A stretch of 64,000 nucleotides of DNA from IMG/VR virus record IMGVR_UViG_3300025141_000026, one strand, 5' to 3'. Source of the stretch: a virus. The translations under genes and the position numbers were made by a program. This document shows positions 6,622-63,201 of this stretch, one piece after another (position 1 is the first letter of the stretch; every line of letters starts with the position of its first letter). Below the pieces are notes generated by a model. It ran no database searches. It was not told where the DNA came from and worked only from the letters and a program-made list of their open reading frames with translations.

Positions 6622-9600
6622 TTATCCTAAAAGTCTAAAGTTTCTGCTGATTGATCTAGTGCTGAACCCCCACTGCTCGTCATATTCTAATCTTCCCATG
6701 TAAGGTCGATTGACCGCAATCTTGTCTTTTTTAGAGTTGACACCCCAGCACTTGATTGAAGTCAAAGCATTATTAGAATCAATCACCTCTACTATGTAAT
6801 ACTCTTTCCCATTTTTTGTTCTCTTGATGTTGATTTTTCTGGGGATAAACCATGCGGCACCCAAGTCAACATCATATTCAGATATTGGTGGGATATGTAA
6901 TTCAGCTAATCTAGCCATGACATCATCATCCATGACAAGACTGAGCGGAAAAGCTCCTGTCAGGCTGGAAAGATGCTCGATCTTTTCATAGTTGGAGAAG
7001 TCGCCCTCATCTTTATACTTCTCAATGTTCTCTAGTAGATTTTTCTCTTTACGAGGTCGCATTACTGCAACCGAACTCCAGAAATGCTTCTCGCCACTAA
7101 ACCTGTTATCCATCAAGGGCTTTAGTGCACCAGCCCTGCACAGAACGTCAAGTGCCTTTTTGTTCAATTTAGAATAAACCATCTCCTCATTGAAGAGGAA
7201 GTCCTCTACTTTAGAAAAAGGTCGGTGTTCCAGAATCTGCTCCATCGCTGCGCCGCCTAAGCCCTTGATGGAAGTTAGTGGTTGAATAAGAACTTTGCCA
7301 TCCTCACTAATCTCCCATACCTCTCCGGACTTATTAACATCTAATGGTTCAACCTTGAAGCCAAACTGCTTTGCAATCGCAATTGCCTTCTCCTTTCTAG
7401 ACTCTGGCTCTTTGTCCAAGAATGCAGCCATCCACTCTGCTGGATAGTAGTTCAACAACCAAGCGCACTGGTATGACAGCACCGAGTAAGAAACAGCGTG
7501 TGACTTGTTGAAACCATACCCTGAGAAATACTCAAACGTTTGCCATAGCTCTTGTGCTTTTCCTTTGGTTAGACCTTTTTTGGTGCACCCAGACACGAAC
7601 TTTTTATATATCTTGTCCTTTTTCTCTTGCACCTTGCCGGTTCCTTTCTTGGTCAACAACTTGCGAAGAGCGTTCCCCTCGTCTAGAGAAAGTCCATCAC
7701 CCAGTTTATGTGCAAGTAGTGCAATCTGCTCTTGGAAAATTAGGAAGCCATAAGTCTCTTCTGTTACCTCTTTTACAATGTCGCTTGCATACTCGACCGC
7801 CTCGGGCTTTCTCATTGCTTTGACGTACATTTTGTCTACTTTTGCGCTAAGTGGTCCCGGTCGATAAATACTAGTAATAGCAGCGATGTCGATGATGCTC
7901 TTTGGTTTTGCCTTCTTGCAGAAATCCTGCGCTCCGCCCTCCGTGAATTGGAAGATGCCAGCCCATTTCCCTTTATGAAAGACACCCTTATAAACCTTCT
8001 GGTCATCTAAGTCAATTTTCTCAGGGTGCAGTTTGGTGTCGTAATAGTGTTTCACATCGTCAAAAGTGGGTTTTTCAATACCGTGGTGCCTCTTGAGAAT
8101 ATGTCTAATTGCACCCTCCATCATTCTCAGAGACGCAAGTCCTAGAATATCAAACTTAATAAATCCCATGGGCTCTAAGTGTCTGACGTTCTGCCCTTCG
8201 GACCATGGAGTCTGTACGACGCCGCCACTATTTATAAGCGGCATATACTTATCCAAATCTTCACCGATAACGACTCCCCCAGCATGACGACTAATGGATC
8301 TCGGCTGTCCAAAAATAACATCAATATGGCTAGCGATATGGGGGTATTTTGTCAGAAATGTTTTGAGTGATTCTGAATACTCCTTTAGCTCCTCAAAGGT
8401 CGGAGTGTAGACACCTGCCTTGATTCCGTGTGCTTTTTTAGCTAACGGAGTTGCCTCCTTCAACATCTTTGAGGTGACGGGGTTGACTTCTGTAAATGGT
8501 ACGCCGTAAAACTTAGAAATATCCTTCACAAGCGAACGAAGTTGTAGCGTATTGAAATTCGAGATGGGCACAACTGTGTTGCGACCCCAATCATCAATCA
8601 GCATTTCCTTTAGTTCCATTGGATCCGAAACATCATAATCGATATCAGGGTAGTCCGTCTGGTCTTTGGTCATGAACCTCTCGAACTGCAACTTGTATTT
8701 GATGGGGTCAATCTGTGTGATACCCAGAGCATATGCAACAAGAGAGCCAGCAGCAGAGCCACGACCTGATCCAACAAGCTGGCAGTCTGTGGCTTTGTCA
8801 GCGATGCTCTTCATAGTCAAAAAGTATTCGCTAAAACCTCGCTTGCTAATGACATCCATCTCCAGAGCGAGTCTACTTGAATACTTCTTGCTCATGAGTC
8901 CAAGCTTAACAAGACCACCTTCACTAAATTTGCGGAGAGCCTCTGAAGCTGATTGCTTATCGGGCACAACAAAGCCGGGGAGACGCACCTTGTTGTCTGG
9001 CATGAATCTTTCGATCCTATTGTGCGCGATATCATGTGTCCGTAAAATAGATTCCTCGATCATCTTGTCGTTATATGACGCACCAACTTTCTCAGAATAG
9101 TATTTATATGACTGCCACATTTCGTCGCCATTTTTTGGATAGAGTTCATACCCAATCTCTTCCACGCTCACAGGGAGTTCGGCGGATAAATAATCGGGGC
9201 TACTCTTGCCAAGCCAACCAAGGCGCTTATAAAGCTCTCGGTCTCGCCATGCATCTTTATTTGGGTAGTGGCTGTCGGCTGTAGATATAAGTTCAATGCC
9301 ATACTCGTGATGTAGTTGAATGATATATTGATTCAACTCATGCTGTTCTGGTACGTTGTTCCATTGTAACTCCCCGTACCATCGGTCTCCAAAGATGTCA
9401 ATCATTCGCTCCGTGGTGTTTCGCATACTTTGGATAACCGCATCTTTGCCCATGTCTCGGTTGTCCCAATAGTTACCAGCGTACACGCCCCCTAAGCATG
9501 CAGAGGCAGCAATCACCCCCTCACTGTGTTTAGACAAGAGATCGTAATCCATGCGAGGATAGCGATAGAAGTTGTCATTGACATATGAATCAGAAACCAT

Positions 9601-10023
9601 CTTAAAAATATTGCTCAGTCCAGTTTGGTTCTGAGCCAATAAGATGAGGTGATTTCTTTTGTTTATTTTACTTTTCTTACTTTTGGAAGCACCCTCATTC
9701 TCGATCACTAGACCTGATTTTGACTTCTTTTTAGAATCCTTCTCTTTTACCAATTCCTTTTTCCAGCCTTTAACTGATGGAATAAAGTAGGCTTCCACTC
9801 CAAAGATTGGCTTGAAGTCTTTCCCCTCTTCCATCATCTTCTTGGCATGGTTAACTTGATAGCTGAGTCCATTCATGTTGCCGTGGTCTGTCAAAGCCAA
9901 AGAGTCCATGCCGTTATCGAACGCACTGTCCATGTGCTCGCCGGGAAAACCTAATCCATCAAAAAAAGACCCTGCCACTGAGTGGGCGTGTAATCCTACA
10001 AATGGAATGTCACTCTTTTTCAA
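6622..10023 (-). CDS. dnaE: DNA polymerase III alpha subunit (family C)
   Basis: PHP domain (LHAHS, ALTDHGNM, ADSHY), GSGRGSAAGSLVAYALGIT, PDIDYD, SRHAGG, KFDILGL, YGFNKSHAVSY. Confidence 0.95.
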   Translation of the reverse strand: MKKSDIPFVGLHAHSVAGSFFDGLGFPGEHMDSAFDNGMDSLALTDHGNMNGLSYQVNHAKKMMEEGKDFKPIFGVEAYFIPSVKGWKKELVKEKDSKKKSKSGLVIENEGASKSKKSKINKRNHLILLAQNQTGLSNIFKMVSDSYVNDNFYRYPRMDYDLLSKHSEGVIAASACLGGVYAGNYWDNRDMGKDAVIQSMRNTTERMIDIFGDRWYGELQWNNVPEQHELNQYIIQLHHEYGIELISTADSHYPNKDAWRDRELYKRLGWLGKSSPDYLSAELPVSVEEIGYELYPKNGDEMWQSYKYYSEKVGASYNDKMIEESILRTHDIAHNRIERFMPDNKVRLPGFVVPDKQSASEALRKFSEGGLVKLGLMSKKYSSRLALEMDVISKRGFSEYFLTMKSIADKATDCQLVGSGRGSAAGSLVAYALGITQIDPIKYKLQFERFMTKDQTDYPDIDYDVSDPMELKEMLIDDWGRNTVVPISNFNTLQLRSLVKDISKFYGVPFTEVNPVTSKMLKEATPLAKKAHGIKAGVYTPTFEELKEYSESLKTFLTKYPHIASHIDVIFGQPRSISRHAGGVVIGEDLDKYMPLINSGGVVQTPWSEGQNVRHLEPMGFIKFDILGLASLRMMEGAIRHILKRHHGIEKPTFDDVKHYYDTKLHPEKIDLDDQKVYKGVFHKGKWAGIFQFTEGGAQDFCKKAKPKSIIDIAAITSIYRPGPLSAKVDKMYVKAMRKPEAVEYASDIVKEVTEETYGFLIFQEQIALLAHKLGDGLSLDEGNALRKLLTKKGTGKVQEKKDKIYKKFVSGCTKKGLTKGKAQELWQTFEYFSGYGFNKSHAVSYSVLSYQCAWLLNYYPAEWMAAFLDKEPESRKEKAIAIAKQFGFKVEPLDVNKSGEVWEISEDGKVLIQPLTSIKGLGGAAMEQILEHRPFSKVEDFLFNEEMVYSKLNKKALDVLCRAGALKPLMDNRFSGEKHFWSSVAVMRPRKEKNLLENIEKYKDEGDFSNYEKIEHLSSLTGAFPLSLVMDDDVMARLAELHIPPISEYDVDLGAAWFIPRKINIKRTKNGKEYYIVEVIDSNNALTSIKCWGVNSKKDKIAVNRPYMGRLEYDEQWGFSTRSISRNFRLLG

Positions 10024-60223: not shown

Positions 60224-60610
60224 TTATAGTCTGATGTTCTTTTGAAGGTGGTCCCCTGCTTTACGCATGTCAGTCTCCAACTTGTGTAAATAAGCGGAAA
60301 TCAAAACAAAGCGAGCGACAAATTCAATTTCGTCCCCCGGCAACACATCACCAAATTTTTTATCTTCAGCGTTCTTGTGTTCGTAAATGTAGTTGAATAG
60401 ATATTGCTCTGTCCTTATGCCGACTTGCGCTCCCAGTTTATCATGGGGCGAGTGACAAGGTTTGCACTGTGCGACCCAGACGTTTGATTTAGTTCGCATA
60501 ATTGATGCGTCTTGTGCCTGAACAGTGATGGGTATAAACAGTAGTAGAATAAAACTACTTTTTAGTTTTCTTAGATTTCTTCTTTTTAGGAGGCTTTGCA
60601 GCATTGTCAT
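60224..60610 (-). CDS. Exported protein with a CxxCH motif (c-type cytochrome-like)
   Basis: Signal-peptide-like N-terminus, then CKPCH. Confidence 0.55.
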   Translation of the reverse strand: MTMLQSLLKRRNLRKLKSSFILLLFIPITVQAQDASIMRTKSNVWVAQCKPCHSPHDKLGAQVGIRTEQYLFNYIYEHKNAEDKKFGDVLPGDEIEFVARFVLISAYLHKLETDMRKAGDHLQKNIRL

Positions 60611-60812: not shown

Positions 60813-60989
60813 TTATTTTTCGTCTTTTGCGTCTAGGTATGCGGCGACAGCCATTTGTTGCCTCTTCTTTTTGCCTTTACCTTTGAATTGCGGTGCCTTA
60901 GATTTGTAGAAGTCATCCACATATGCACCTGCTCCGTCAGATGGCTTTAGTTTTTCTCCAAGCCCCAACTGAGCTTCTTCCTCTTCTGG
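60813..60989 (-). other. Open in-frame extension after the TGA of 60990..61373 (58 codons to TAA)
   Basis: PEEEEAQLGLGEKLKPSDGAGAYVDDFYKSKAPQFKGKGKKKRQQMAVAAYLDAKDEK; fills an otherwise empty 180-nt gap. Confidence 0.7.
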
Positions 60990-61373
60990 TCACTGTTCTT
61001 GTAAATCGTCATCTTCGTTTACTGTTCTTGGGGAATCTAAAGTTTCACCGCTAGTAACATCTTTGACAACAGACATAAGAAACTCAACTGCTTTATCGTG
61101 CATGTCTTGCGGATCTTTTGAAACAGGTTCTCCAGTACCAGCATATGTTTGAGCTACATCTGTTGGCGTAGTCATTTCTTGGTATGCTGCACCAATAGCT
61201 GCTTCAAGATTTTGAATAGTCTCTACGTCAATACTTTCGTCCAATTGTTCGTCTTGTTGTTCTAACTCTTCTTGGACTTCTTCTCCAAACATCTCACCAG
61301 CTTCTTCGTTTGTAAGAACAACTTGAAGCTCTTCTCTAATGATTTGTTTAAGTCTTGCTTTTGTCATTTTCAT
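60990..61373 (-). CDS. Acidic protein with second-class leader MKMTKARLKQIIREE
   Basis: AAGGAG RBS; leader shared with 61610..61723. Confidence 0.65.
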   Translation of the reverse strand: MKMTKARLKQIIREELQVVLTNEEAGEMFGEEVQEELEQQDEQLDESIDVETIQNLEAAIGAAYQEMTTPTDVAQTYAGTGEPVSKDPQDMHDKAVEFLMSVVKDVTSGETLDSPRTVNEDDDLQEQ

Positions 61374-61609
61374 TTATTTGATCTCTCCTTGTCGTCGTCA
61401 TCTTGCTTGGCATGCATATGCTCATTTACAAGAGTCTGCTCGATGTCTGATTCTGTCAAGTTTCTGATGATTGTATCACCAAATTTCATATCATAAACGC
61501 CGATATCGCCATTCTCATTGAGAGAGTGCCAAAGAACTTTTCCAACGGCGTTTTTTTCGTTGATTCCGTATCTTTCCTGTAAAGCTGAACTCAGCTTTCC
61601 TTCCTTCAT
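61370..61609 (-). CDS. Hypothetical protein
   Basis: Coupled small ORF. Confidence 0.55.
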   Translation of the reverse strand: MKEGKLSSALQERYGINEKNAVGKVLWHSLNENGDIGVYDMKFGDTIIRNLTESDIEQTLVNEHMHAKQDDDDKERSNK

Positions 61610-61723
61610 TCATTTGTGTTTGAGGTCGTCAAGTTCCTTTTCAAGTTCTTTCTTTCTTTTCTTCTCAGCTTTTGTGAGTTCTTCTGCGATAATCTCTTTT
61701 AATCGTTGTTTTGTAATTTTCAT
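61610..61723 (-). CDS. 37-aa protein MKITKQRLKEIIAEELTKAEKKRKKELEKELDDLKHK (below cut-off)
   Basis: GAGGG RBS; second-class leader; fills the gap. Confidence 0.6.
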   Translation of the reverse strand: MKITKQRLKEIIAEELTKAEKKRKKELEKELDDLKHK

Positions 61724-61732
61724 GTTATTCCC

Positions 61733-62671
61733 TCATAATGAATTTATAGCTTCGTAGAGTAAGTAGTTTTCATCATTCAAAAAAGAAGCCCTAGATTTTC
61801 TCTGCAAAAACTCCTCTTTTGACATCTCGCCAACATCGGTATATGGGAGTATGTCAATCTTGTATACTTTTATATCATAGGACAGCAATTTCTGTATGAT
61901 TCTCCTCGTCTTTTTCTCTGCGTCGGGGTCAAGTGCTAAGTATACATCTGATCCGTGATTTACTATGTCTTGAAATAGTTTTCCATCTTCTTTAATATAA
62001 GAGCCAAGAATCGGAATAGCATTGGCTCCTGCAACAACTGCATCAAATACACCCTCGACAAGAGTGATATCTTTTGTCCAATCAACCATTAGTTGGTTGA
62101 ACACAATATTCTTTGATACTGGTGGGTTCTTGTACTTTGGAAATGCATCGCCGTAAGCTCTGCCAACAAAATAATTTAGACAGCCTCTGTCATCAAACGA
62201 TGGGATCATAACTCGACCAGCATACTCGCCCTCTGAGCAATAGCCCATCTTCCAGTTGATAATGTCTTCTTCGGAAACATCACGGCTCTTCAAATATCTT
62301 TTGACTCGTTTGGTGTCATAGCAATCGCTTGCACTGACAAGAGACTTGAATTCTCTTGGCAAGCGTACTTTTATTGGTGGGTCAACTTCTTCCTGAGCAA
62401 ACAGGGAGTCAAAGTCTAGGATATTGGTGCGGTTGGTTAGTTTGTCCCACTCTGCCAATTCATCACGAGAGCCAAACTTTCTGACTAACCTGCGAATATC
62501 ATTGCCGCTCGTTTCACAGATCCAGCATTTGTATTTGTTTTTTGGTATGTTTACGGAGAGTTTCTTTTTGTGGTGATTGCAAAAGCCGCACTTAAAAATG
62601 TATTCTTCACCAGATGCATAATATCTACCCAAGGCATCACTGAGAATGTTTACTTTTTTCTGCTCTGACAA
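61733..62671 (-). CDS. DNA primase (zinc finger plus TOPRIM)
   Basis: CGFC...CWIC, LVEGVFD, ALDPD. Confidence 0.88.
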   Translation of the reverse strand: MSEQKKVNILSDALGRYYASGEEYIFKCGFCNHHKKKLSVNIPKNKYKCWICETSGNDIRRLVRKFGSRDELAEWDKLTNRTNILDFDSLFAQEEVDPPIKVRLPREFKSLVSASDCYDTKRVKRYLKSRDVSEEDIINWKMGYCSEGEYAGRVMIPSFDDRGCLNYFVGRAYGDAFPKYKNPPVSKNIVFNQLMVDWTKDITLVEGVFDAVVAGANAIPILGSYIKEDGKLFQDIVNHGSDVYLALDPDAEKKTRRIIQKLLSYDIKVYKIDILPYTDVGEMSKEEFLQRKSRASFLNDENYLLYEAINSL

Positions 62672-63201
62672 ATTTCGTATCCTGCTTTTGCTATAATAAT
62701 ACTGTCAGCAATGTCATAATATTTCGGTTTGAGATTGCCTGATTTTGTATACTCTACAGTAAATTTAGGTTCGCTGTCAAGCAAAAACTTAACAACTTGT
62801 TCTTTTGCCTTTGTGCCTTTTTTGATAGTAATACCACAGGATTTACGAGCAGATGAGGCGGAAAGATGTTCTGGCTTTATTCCAAGTTCCCTAAAGCAAA
62901 GATATGTCACAACTCCGTTGAAAGATGAGAGCGTTGATAGGGTTTTGGCTGATGAGAAGCCAGAGCGGAACATTTGGAGGCTTTGCTCGATAAAAATGTG
63001 AGAAAATATATCACTACCTTCATACCATGTTTGGTGACGAAGGTGTCTTACTGTTTCAAACACTTTTTGATATTTTGCATAAATGTCTGGATAGTGGTTT
63101 TTATTTCGCAAATCCAGTGCGTCAGTTTTTATAATTTTGCCGTCTTTGTCGAGAATTGTTATGCCAATGATACTTGTTGAAATGTCTAAGCCTAAAATCA
63201 T
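62650..63201 (-). CDS. RuvC-like Holliday junction resolvase
   Basis: ILGLDISTSIIG, IFIE, AKEQV, DIADS. Confidence 0.8.
   Translation of the reverse strand: MILGLDISTSIIGITILDKDGKIIKTDALDLRNKNHYPDIYAKYQKVFETVRHLRHQTWYEGSDIFSHIFIEQSLQMFRSGFSSAKTLSTLSSFNGVVTYLCFRELGIKPEHLSASSARKSCGITIKKGTKAKEQVVKFLLDSEPKFTVEYTKSGNLKPKYYDIADSIIIAKAGYEICQSRKK

What the first reader, a model, noticed from the sequence alone, without database searches (positions are those of the whole stretch)
60813..61373. In-frame UGA followed by a hairpin and an intact domain: readthrough or selenocysteine candidate
Seen: ORF 60990..61373 stops at TGA, but the same frame continues 58 codons of protein-like sequence to TAA at 60813 and fills the gap exactly (…DDDLQEQ*PEEEEAQLGLGEKLKPSDGAGAYVDDFYKSKAPQFKGKG…MAVAAYLDAK). 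The context is UGA-C. A stem-loop AAGCUC-AGUUG-GGGCUU follows, with its loop starting 19 nt after the UGA and G at the second loop position. Established: UGAC is a weak bacterial terminator, and bacterial SECIS elements are short hairpins just 3' of UGA with a G early in the loop. Inference: programmed readthrough or Sec insertion yields short and long forms. Alternatives are a nonsense mutation, an assembly error, or a separate gene from TTG 60968. The SECIS pattern is loose and could occur by chance.
Basis: partly seen in the sequence, partly recalled or inferred. Interest (0 to 1): 0.7.

Follow-up and report, generated by a model that had tools for sequence, protein, structure and literature searches.

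The report
Phage UGA recoding cassette, probably selenocysteine
A small gene of an uncultured marine T4-like phage keeps an internal UGA "stop", an RNA hairpin and an intact end domain in at least nine divergent relatives, next to a gene with the full selenocysteine signature, so the UGA is a programmed recoding site, most likely read as selenocysteine, which I found reported for no virus of bacteria.

Summary
On the minus strand, ORF 61373..60990 ends in TGA-C. The frame stays open for 58 codons, and the hairpin AAGCUC-AGUUG-GGGCUU lies at 60976..60960.

It is neither an error nor a fresh mutation. Nine distinct relatives keep TGA at the same column after Glu-Gln, followed in frame by an 11-12-codon linker and a 45-residue basic module. 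That module evolves at dN/dS <=0.11 while synonymous sites are saturated. Some relatives have no usable start codon after the TGA. TGA is an ordinary stop elsewhere in the window, and no suppressor tRNA was found in related phages.

The adjacent upstream gene (61723..61370) has a second in-frame TGA. It is kept in 51 distinct loci, always with a covarying hairpin whose loop sits at nt 22-27. Three distant lineages have Cys there instead; in the two with DNA the codon is TGT and the hairpin is absent. This is the classical Sec/Cys plus SECIS signature.

The "Trp" seen at these columns in protein databases is a code-4 gene-calling artefact, demonstrated for P0099.

Best reading: host SelB-dependent selenocysteine insertion gives a long form beside a short form (0.57). 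Near-cognate read-through is the main rival (0.27). This scan has reported phage selenoprotein families on other DNA. The new element here is a UGA-plus-hairpin cassette in an interdomain linker.

The parts
60990..61373 (-). Gene 1 short form: a leader (MKMTKARLKQIIREEL...) plus the N-core domain, 127 aa, ending at the in-frame TGA.
   Evidence: Homologues: (871 proteins at E<=0.01). Alignment.
60990..60992 (-). Conserved in-frame UGA, always preceded by Glu-Gln (GAR CAR). This is the recoding site.
   Evidence: TGA sits at the same column in the window, L005/L006, L009, L041, L042, L043, L044, L048 and L053. Thirty-one of the top 120 database clusters end in ..EQ.
60957..60989 (-). Eleven-codon acidic linker (PEEEEAQLGLG) that carries the hairpin. 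Together with the preceding Gln-UGA it forms a 13-14-codon cassette (13 in the short-linker relatives, 14 in the window) that is absent from relatives whose two parts are fused.
   Evidence: The frame is kept despite a 3-nt length difference between relatives. AlphaFold2 predicts residues 113-150 as disordered.
60960..60976 (-). SECIS-like stem-loop AAGCUC-AGUUG-GGGCUU, with the loop at nt 23-27 counted from the U of UGA.
   Evidence: Cells paired: 90.7%. One compensatory change (L053). The Gly codon in the 3' arm is GGG in 9 of 9 loci against 12.9% genome usage. In all 8 loci tested the hairpin is more stable than synonymous recodings of the same peptide.
60813..60956 (-). C-terminal basic module (EKLKPSDGAGAYVDDF..KGK..QQMAVAAYLDAK) and the TAA stop. 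It can be reached only by decoding the UGA.
   Evidence: dN/dS <=0.11 among the TGA-bearing loci. The same module is fused to many other phage proteins.
61610..61723 (-). Gene 2, part upstream of its own in-frame UGA (61612..61610): the leader MKITKQRLKEII... ending in ..LKHK.
   Evidence: His at position -2 is invariant across the family.
61581..61598 (-). Gene 2 SECIS-type hairpin AAAGCUG-AGUU-CAGCUUU, with the tetraloop at nt 22-25 (G23, U24).
   Evidence: 94.7% of cells paired; 12 double-change cells against 2.4+-1.2 in shuffles (0 of 500 reach the observed value)..
61370..61609 (-). Gene 2, part downstream of the UGA (..WHSLNE..YDMKFG..EHMH).
   Evidence: Three distant lineages have Cys at the UGA column; the two with DNA (L155, L156/L157) read TGT and lack the hairpin.

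Best explanation
The UGA at 60992..60990 is a programmed recoding site.

Most ribosomes probably terminate there and release a 127-aa short form. This step is inferred. A fraction decode the UGA and continue through an 11-codon acidic linker into a 47-residue basic C-terminal module, giving a 186-aa long form. That the module is translated is shown by conservation.

The residue inserted is most likely selenocysteine. In this model Sec-tRNA(Sec) is delivered by the host's SelB bound to the hairpin at 60976..60960. This step is also inferred. It rests on the hairpin's geometry and on the neighbouring gene, which carries the full selenoprotein signature with the same class of hairpin.

The cassette lies in a disordered linker and is simply absent from relatives that fuse the two parts. 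Its role may therefore be to set or gate the ratio of long to short form, rather than to supply a catalytic Sec.
For: 1. TGA lies at the identical column after Glu-Gln in 9 distinct loci. These differ in their N-terminal make-up: with a middle domain, without it, or with a divergent N-core.
2. The downstream module has dN 0.03-0.17 with dS 0.8 to saturated, so dN/dS <=0.11.
3. There is no conserved start codon after the TGA. The first in-frame start is at codon 45 in L041 and at codon 23 in L048.
4. TGA is exclusive here, while the window's ORFs end TAA 37, TGA 15, TAG 14. The identity of the stop codon therefore matters.
5. A hairpin is present in 8 of 9 loci, with loops AGUUG, AGUCU, GGUCU or AGGCU. 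G at loop position 2 is invariant when the loop is defined on the alignment. The Gly codon is GGG in 9 of 9. The synonymous-recoding test gives fractions of 0.02-0.29 in all 8 loci; my Fisher combination over 6 lineages gives about 0.003.
6. The adjacent gene has TGA in 51 distinct loci, each with a hairpin whose loop is at nt 22-27, and the covariation is strong. Three Cys lineages exist: L155 and L156/L157, both TGT and both without the hairpin, and P0270, known only as protein.
7. All four bases occur after that gene's UGA, so a leaky termination context is not what is conserved.
8. The geometry matches the E. coli SECIS as reviewed in PMC8659212: an upper stem-loop at nt 15-31 with conserved G23 and U24.
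9. The window has no tRNA gene. Five related phage records, one of them complete, have no tRNA with anticodon UCA. The window shows no general TGA recoding.
Against: - No homologue of this gene has Cys, or any sense codon, at the column. Fused relatives lack the whole cassette.
- The site lies in an acidic, predicted-disordered linker. There is no redox motif and no other Cys in the protein.
- This gene's hairpin is weak (-4 to -10 kcal/mol). Its covariation alone is not significant (52 of 500 shuffles). Its distance from the UGA varies by 3 nt, and it has no bulged U.
- Seven of nine loci have UGA-C, the classical leaky context.
- The host is unknown. Related phages carry no tRNA-Sec, selB or selD, so a Sec-competent host has to be assumed.
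- One relative of the neighbouring gene (L215, a MAG contig at about 5x coverage) has a genuine TGG and still keeps the hairpin.
Confidence: 0.57

Rival explanations
1. Programmed read-through without selenium. The UGA is misread at low frequency by a near-cognate tRNA, classically tRNA-Trp as for the Qbeta A1 protein. The weak UGA-C context helps, and perhaps the hairpin does too. Short and long forms result.
For: Seven of nine loci have UGA-C, and Glu-Gln upstream is conserved. No Cys homologue exists for this gene. The site is in a linker where any residue would do. One genuine TGG variant that keeps its hairpin exists in the neighbouring gene's superfamily (L215).
Against: Two loci have UGA-G or UGA-A. 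No structure-stimulated Trp read-through in bacteria is known to me. The hairpin is of the same class, and at the same distance, as that of the adjacent gene, where Cys homologues point to Sec. The database 'W' at this column is shown to come from code-4 gene calling for P0099, whose tail ..KSKWLKAWLSA matches an L053-type ..K-TGA-..A-TGA-LSA-TAA. No TGG was found among the 52 distinct loci of the neighbouring family seen up; nearly all of these are viral contigs.
Confidence: 0.27
2. There are two separate genes. The UGA is a plain stop, and the C-terminal module is made on its own, either from an internal start (TTG 60968) or by termination-reinitiation.
For: TTG 60968 has a purine-rich GAGGAA nine bases upstream. 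Small stand-alone or N-terminal versions of the module exist in other phages, beginning MPLKPS....
Against: The TTG is missing in L009, L041, L044, L048 and L053. L041 has no in-frame ATG, GTG or TTG before codon 45 and L048 none before codon 23, yet the residues upstream of those codons are conserved. A plain stop would vary among TAA, TAG and TGA; here it is TGA in 9 of 9 against 23% in the genome. The linker keeps its frame across a 3-nt length difference.
Confidence: 0.04
3. General reassignment or suppression. The phage or its host reads UGA as a sense codon (code 4), or the phage brings an opal suppressor tRNA late in infection.
For: Database gene callers translated some relatives with TGA=W.
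Against: Fifteen of the window's 66 ORFs end in TGA, many of them in ATGA overlaps. Only two in-frame TGAs in 64 kb have coding sequence on both sides. The window has no tRNA. Five related phage records, including a complete 186-kb one, carry only Met, Arg-TCT, Asn, Leu-TAA, Thr, Glu, Lys and Ile-TAT tRNAs.
Confidence: 0.03
4. A nonsense mutation, a decaying pseudogene or an assembly error.
For: None beyond the bare presence of a stop codon.
Against: Nine independent assemblies show the same TGA. The downstream module is intact and under purifying selection at saturated dS.
Confidence: 0.01

Closest known systems
Bacterial selenoprotein genes with an in-ORF SECIS read by SelB (prototype E. coli fdhF; review PMC8659212)
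   Same: In-frame UGA. A stem-loop lies a few codons downstream inside the coding sequence, with its apical loop at about nt 20-27 and G (mostly GU) early in the loop. Conserved coding sequence lies on both sides. The neighbouring gene shares even the G23/U24 numbering.
   Different: The gene is encoded by a virus of bacteria. No Cys homologue exists for this gene. The UGA lies in a disordered acidic linker rather than an active site. The UGA-plus-hairpin unit behaves as an insertable 13-14-codon cassette that fused relatives lack. There is no bulged U.
Qbeta A1 (read-through) protein: UGA leak by tRNA-Trp adds a C-terminal domain to a minor fraction of coat protein (from memory)
   Same: A short and a long isoform are made from one ORF through a conserved UGA. 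The extension is a functional domain.
   Different: This is a dsDNA T4-like phage. A conserved hairpin follows the stop. The inserted residue is probably Sec, not Trp.
C-terminal isoforms made by recoding in dsDNA phages: T7 gene 10A/10B and lambda G/GT (-1 frameshifts; from memory)
   Same: A fixed-ratio long form with an added C-terminal part.
   Different: Those use frameshifting at slippery sites. Here the frame is unchanged and a stop codon is decoded.
Phage selenoprotein candidates already reported by this scan on other genomes (e1-5388806, e1-5388821, e1-5778765, e1-5810529)
   Same: UGA kept in many marine phage relatives, a covarying bSECIS-type hairpin, and Cys in distant relatives. 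Gene 2 of this window is of that kind, possibly of the same family.
   Different: Gene 1, the finding itself, has no Cys counterpart and carries the signal in an interdomain linker.

Membership tests
Bacterial-type selenoprotein gene (UGA + bSECIS) | In-frame UGA conserved among orthologues | tested here: met
   Nine distinct loci have TGA at the same column. Thirty-one of 120 database clusters stop at ..EQ.
Bacterial-type selenoprotein gene (UGA + bSECIS) | Protein-level conservation continues in frame downstream of the UGA | tested here: met
   dN/dS <=0.11 with dS 0.8 to saturated. The frame is kept across a 3-nt length difference.
Bacterial-type selenoprotein gene (UGA + bSECIS) | Stem-loop just 3' of the UGA, with the apical loop about 16-37 nt away and G in the first two loop bases (bSECISearch criteria, from memory; E. 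coli geometry per PMC8659212) | tested here: met
   Loops lie at nt 20-24 or 23-27. Loop sequences are AGUUG, AGUCU, GGUCU and AGGCU. Folding energy is -4 to -10 kcal/mol. L009 is weak.
Bacterial-type selenoprotein gene (UGA + bSECIS) | Covariation or synonymous-site constraint supporting the hairpin | tested here: inconclusive
   One compensatory pair; 52 of 500 shuffles reach the observed score. Against that, GGG is used in 9 of 9 loci versus 12.9% genome-wide, and the recoding test combines to about 0.003.
Bacterial-type selenoprotein gene (UGA + bSECIS) | Homologues with Cys aligned to the UGA | tested here: not met
   None for gene 1: fused relatives lack the cassette. The feature is met for the adjacent gene 2. 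L155 and L156/L157 read TGT, and P0270 has Cys.
Bacterial-type selenoprotein gene (UGA + bSECIS) | Sec machinery (selA, selB, selC, selD) available in the cell | not testable with these tools
   The host is unknown and no genome is held for this window. Related phage records carry no tRNA-Sec, selB or selD.
Bacterial-type selenoprotein gene (UGA + bSECIS) | Selenium actually incorporated | not testable with these tools
   This needs 75Se labelling or mass spectrometry.
Programmed stop-codon read-through (Qbeta A1 type) | Conserved leaky stop with a functional in-frame extension | tested here: met
Programmed stop-codon read-through (Qbeta A1 type) | Conserved weak termination context (UGA-C) | tested here: inconclusive
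   The next base is C in 7 loci, G in 1 and A in 1. In gene 2's superfamily all four bases occur.
Stop-codon-recoded phage (code 4 or suppressor tRNA) | Many in-frame TGAs across genes, TGA avoided as a stop, and a suppressor tRNA | tested here: not met

The most novel reading that the evidence does not exclude
Marine T4-like phages use the host's selenocysteine machinery not only for a Sec/Cys-type protein (gene 2) but also as a translational gate. A portable 'Gln-UGA-acidic linker-SECIS' cassette placed between two domains makes addition of a widespread basic C-terminal module depend on SelB, Sec-tRNA and selenium supply. Two adjacent phage genes are then selenoproteins, and the ratio of long to short isoform reports the host's selenium status.
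Probability: 0.3. Interest if true: 0.9.

Novelty: new variant of a known kind. Interest (0 to 1): 0.78.

Why it matters
I found no paper describing a selenoprotein encoded by a virus of bacteria. One survey of marine selenoprotein families reported few or no viral sequences (PMC9402790).

If the reading holds:
- Abundant marine phages depend on host selenium metabolism.
- Gene callers systematically split or truncate these genes, or mistranslate them with code 4.
- A SECIS would be serving as an isoform switch rather than as access to a catalytic residue.

The cassette is short (13-14 codons), so it is easy to test in a reporter. It could also be useful as a natural, compact UGA-recoding module.

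Tried and rejected
- Trp at the UGA column. I first took the 'W' in database homologues (P0013, P0099 and about 20 for gene 2) as evidence for Trp read-through. I rejected this because the tail of P0099 reproduces two further TGA codons of an L053-type locus read as W. Nine of 27 such proteins have extra W near their ends, against 1 of about 95 others. None of the 52 distinct loci of gene 2's family seen up to one search has TGG.
- DUF6321. The weak cyanophage hits lie upstream of the DUF6321 domain, not in it.
- Family libraries. Pfam and PHROGs gave nothing for either part of the gene. Rfam gave nothing. Cultured phages gave no DNA match, and no protein match for gene 2.
- Code 4 or a suppressor tRNA: rejected.
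- A separate gene from TTG 60968: rejected.
- Other structures. Longer-range RNA folds differ between loci and do not beat shuffles.
- A pattern scan of viral contigs for the GLGEKLKPS linker found only the three loci already known.
- The AlphaFold2 model was too poor (pLDDT 58.6) for a fold search.
- A scan of the complete related genome G001 for further UGA-plus-hairpin genes found only gene 2.
- The GTDB genome scan gave a single MAG contig and no clue to the host.
The DNA behind most '..EQ' database clusters could therefore not be read.

Full report
**Observation**

On the minus strand an ATG ORF runs 61373..60993 (127 aa) and ends in TGA at 60992..60990, followed by C. The same frame then stays open for 58 codons to TAA at 60815..60813.

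The window is part of an uncultured marine T4-like phage. It encodes gp23-type capsid, gp20-type portal, T4-type terminase and tail sheath proteins, together with a DnaE-type polymerase and a class II ribonucleotide reductase. TGA is an ordinary stop here: 66 ORFs end TAA 37, TGA 15 and TAG 14. There is no tRNA gene in the window. Only two in-frame TGAs in 64 kb have substantial open frame on both sides, at 60992 and 61612.

**The TGA is conserved and the downstream part is translated**

The read-through product has 871 database relatives at E<=0.01. The family is modular. It consists of a shared leader (MKITKxRLKQII.EEL), an N-core (..GEPVSKDP..), an optional helical middle domain, and an optional basic C-terminal module (EKLKPS.GAGAYVDDF..KGK..Q.MAIAAYLD.K).

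Among the top 120 clusters, 46 fuse the module directly (..EMEEKLKPS..). Thirty-one stop at ..EQ.

DNA fetched from viral and metagenome contigs shows what follows ..EQ. In nine distinct relatives (L005/L006, L009, L041, L042, L043, L044, L048, L053, plus the window) the stop is always TGA. It is preceded by GAR-CAR and followed in frame by a 10-11-codon acidic linker ending GLG, and then by the module.

These loci differ in N-terminal make-up. Some have the middle domain, some lack it, and one has a divergent N-core.

Between them the module has dS from 0.8 to saturation but dN of only 0.03-0.17, so dN/dS is at most 0.11. It is therefore translated.

There is no conserved start codon after the TGA. 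The window's TTG is absent in five relatives. L041 has no in-frame start before codon 45 and L048 none before codon 23. A mutation, an assembly error or a separate gene are thus excluded. A plain stop would not be TGA nine times out of nine in a genome that uses TGA for 23% of its stops.

**The hairpin of gene 1**

Of the cells in the stem, 90.7% are paired. There are U-G/C-G alternation and one compensatory change (L053). Taken alone this does not beat shuffles: 52 of 500 reach the observed score.

Independent support comes from synonymous sites. The Gly codon in the 3' arm is GGG in all nine loci, against 12.9% genome usage. When the linker peptide is recoded synonymously with the phage's own codon usage, each of the eight loci tested is more stable than the recoded mean (fractions 0.02-0.29). 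My Fisher combination over six lineages gives about 0.003. The hairpin is therefore probable, but weaker than one would like.

**The neighbouring gene changes the picture**

An earlier first-stage note led me to the gene immediately upstream. Its leader ORF (61723..61613) ends ..LKHK-TGA (61612..61610). The frame then continues as MKEGKLSSALQERYG...WHSLNE...EHMH to 61370. A 7-bp hairpin follows, AAAGCUG-AGUU-CAGCUUU at 61598..61581, with a folding energy of -8.5 kcal/mol and its tetraloop at nt 22-25.

Twenty-seven distinct relatives all carry TGA at this column. The loop never changes and the stem covaries: 94.7% of cells are paired, and there are 12 double-change cells against 2.4+-1.2 in shuffles, with 0 of 500 shuffles reaching the observed value. 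Slid-register controls pair at only 15-55%.

A profile search of 1.8 billion representative proteins and a further contig scan widened the family. Fifty-one distinct loci have TGA at a conserved H-x-[TGA]-x-x-H column. They fall into four subfamilies, and three of these have no ATG after the TGA. Each subfamily has its own hairpin with the apical loop at nt 22-27; the loops are AGUU, GGUCU, GUC and GGA. Compensatory changes occur within subfamilies.

Three distant lineages have Cys at this column (H-A/S-C-A-N/T-H). In the two for which DNA is available (L155, L156/L157) the codon is TGT and there is no hairpin at that place.

All four bases occur after the UGA.

This is the accepted bioinformatic signature of a selenoprotein. 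The geometry matches the E. coli SECIS as reviewed in PMC8659212: an upper stem-loop at nt 15-31 with conserved G23 and U24. Gene 1's hairpin has the same loop motif as gene 2's in the same genome (AGUU) and the same loop types in other relatives (AGUCU, GGUCU).

**A trap: 'Trp' in the databases**

Two relatives of gene 1 and about twenty of gene 2 show W at the UGA column. I first read this as evidence for Trp insertion. It is not.
- The tail of P0099 (..KSKWLKAWLSA) is an L053-type ..K-TGA-..A-TGA-LSA-TAA read with code 4.
- Nine of 27 W-forms carry extra W near their ends, against 1 of about 95 others.
- None of the 52 distinct loci of gene 2's family seen up to one search has TGG.

One genuine TGG exists, in a MAG contig at about 5x coverage (L215), and it still has its hairpin. 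This keeps the read-through rival alive.

**Other checks**
- Five related phage records, one of them a complete 186-kb genome, carry no tRNA with anticodon UCA, no tRNA-Sec, no selB and no selD. Any Sec would therefore need host machinery, and the host is unknown.
- A phage whose gene 2 uses Cys has a gene-1-like protein that ends in a Cys-rich tail and has no UGA cassette.
- AlphaFold2 places the UGA in a disordered stretch (residues 113-150). It predicts two helices for the module, at low confidence (pLDDT 58.6).
- The module itself is widespread. In 46 distinct viral contexts it sits at the N-terminus, at the C-terminus or alone. It is 60% identical to an internal segment of a cyanophage protein encoded between the two terminase genes. 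Only in the gene 1 family is it preceded by TGA.

**Mechanism**

What is shown: a conserved UGA, a specific requirement for TGA, a translated downstream module, and a conserved local hairpin.

What is inferred: partial termination gives the 127-aa form. Host SelB bound to the hairpin delivers Sec-tRNA(Sec), and the 186-aa form results.

Fused relatives simply lack the 13-14-codon cassette, and the site is a disordered linker. I therefore think the cassette's role is to set or gate the long-to-short ratio rather than to provide Sec chemistry. That part is speculative.

My odds are: Sec 0.57; near-cognate read-through 0.27; separate gene or reinitiation 0.04; general suppression 0.03; mutation or error 0.01. 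The remainder is unassigned.

**Novelty**

I found no paper on phage-encoded selenoproteins. A marine survey found few or no viral sequences among selenoprotein families (PMC9402790).

This scan has already reported several phage selenoprotein families on other genomes, and gene 2 is of that kind.

What is new here is a UGA-plus-SECIS-like cassette in an interdomain linker, without a Cys counterpart, next to a Sec/Cys-type gene.

**Limits**

Most '..EQ' clusters could therefore not be checked at the DNA level, and two thirds of this phage's own genome was not searched.

Noticed in passing
window 61370-61723 (-): The adjacent gene has its own in-frame UGA (61612..61610) and a covarying hairpin (61581..61598). 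TGA is kept in 51 distinct relatives. Three distant lineages have Cys (TGT without the hairpin in the two with DNA), within an H-x-[U/C]-x-x-H ... WHS ... H.H pattern that looks like a metal site. It is most likely a phage selenoprotein.
   Followed up: yes
database proteins P0013, P0099, P0121-P0174: Public protein collections hold code-4 translations of these phage genes (TGA read as W, and probably one code-25 call with G, P0149). A 'Trp' aligned to a UGA in such databases is not evidence of a sense codon.
   Followed up: yes
L215:3085 (MAG contig CAYTDF010000118.1): This is the one genuine TGG at the gene 2 UGA column. It still has a strong hairpin, GGCUGAG-GGA-CUCAGCC. Contig coverage is about 5x. 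It may be a recent escape mutation, an error, or a hint that Trp is tolerated.
   Followed up: partly
window 61676-61723 and 61326-61373 (-); L011-L040: The leader MKITKxRLKxII.EEL(xVxLTNEEAxEMFG) heads many otherwise unrelated small ORFs in related phages. L236 and L241 consist of a leader fused directly to the basic module (79-80 aa). It could be a targeting or propeptide sequence like the T4 capsid-targeting sequence; that is speculation.
   Followed up: partly
L234-L313; L001:1950-2200: The basic module LKPS.GAGAYV.DF.KS.APQFKGKS.KK.Q.MAIAAYLD is a mobile unit in marine phage proteins. It occurs N-terminal (MPLKPS...), C-terminal or alone, and also inside a cyanophage protein encoded between the two terminase genes. 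Its function is unknown.
   Followed up: partly
window 61265-62764 (-): The primase gene, the gene 2 leader ORF and the gene 2 body all lie in one frame, separated only by TGA codons (61735, 61612, 61372). The primase TGA has no SECIS-like hairpin by my filter.
   Followed up: partly
window 60224-60610 (-): A 128-aa ORF has a signal-like N-terminus and a CKPCH (CxxCH haem-binding type) motif. It may be a phage-encoded c-type cytochrome. An earlier first-stage reader also noted it.
   Followed up: no
window 6625-9933 (-): A T4-like structural module is combined with a bacterial DnaE-type DNA polymerase III alpha (PHP, NTPase, finger and HhH domains) instead of a T4-type polymerase.
   Followed up: no
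L217:1465-1788 (G007): In a phage whose gene 2 homologue uses Cys, the gene-1-like protein (leader plus middle domain) ends in a Cys-rich tail, GGCDCGCGNCG, instead of the UGA cassette and basic module.
   Followed up: partly
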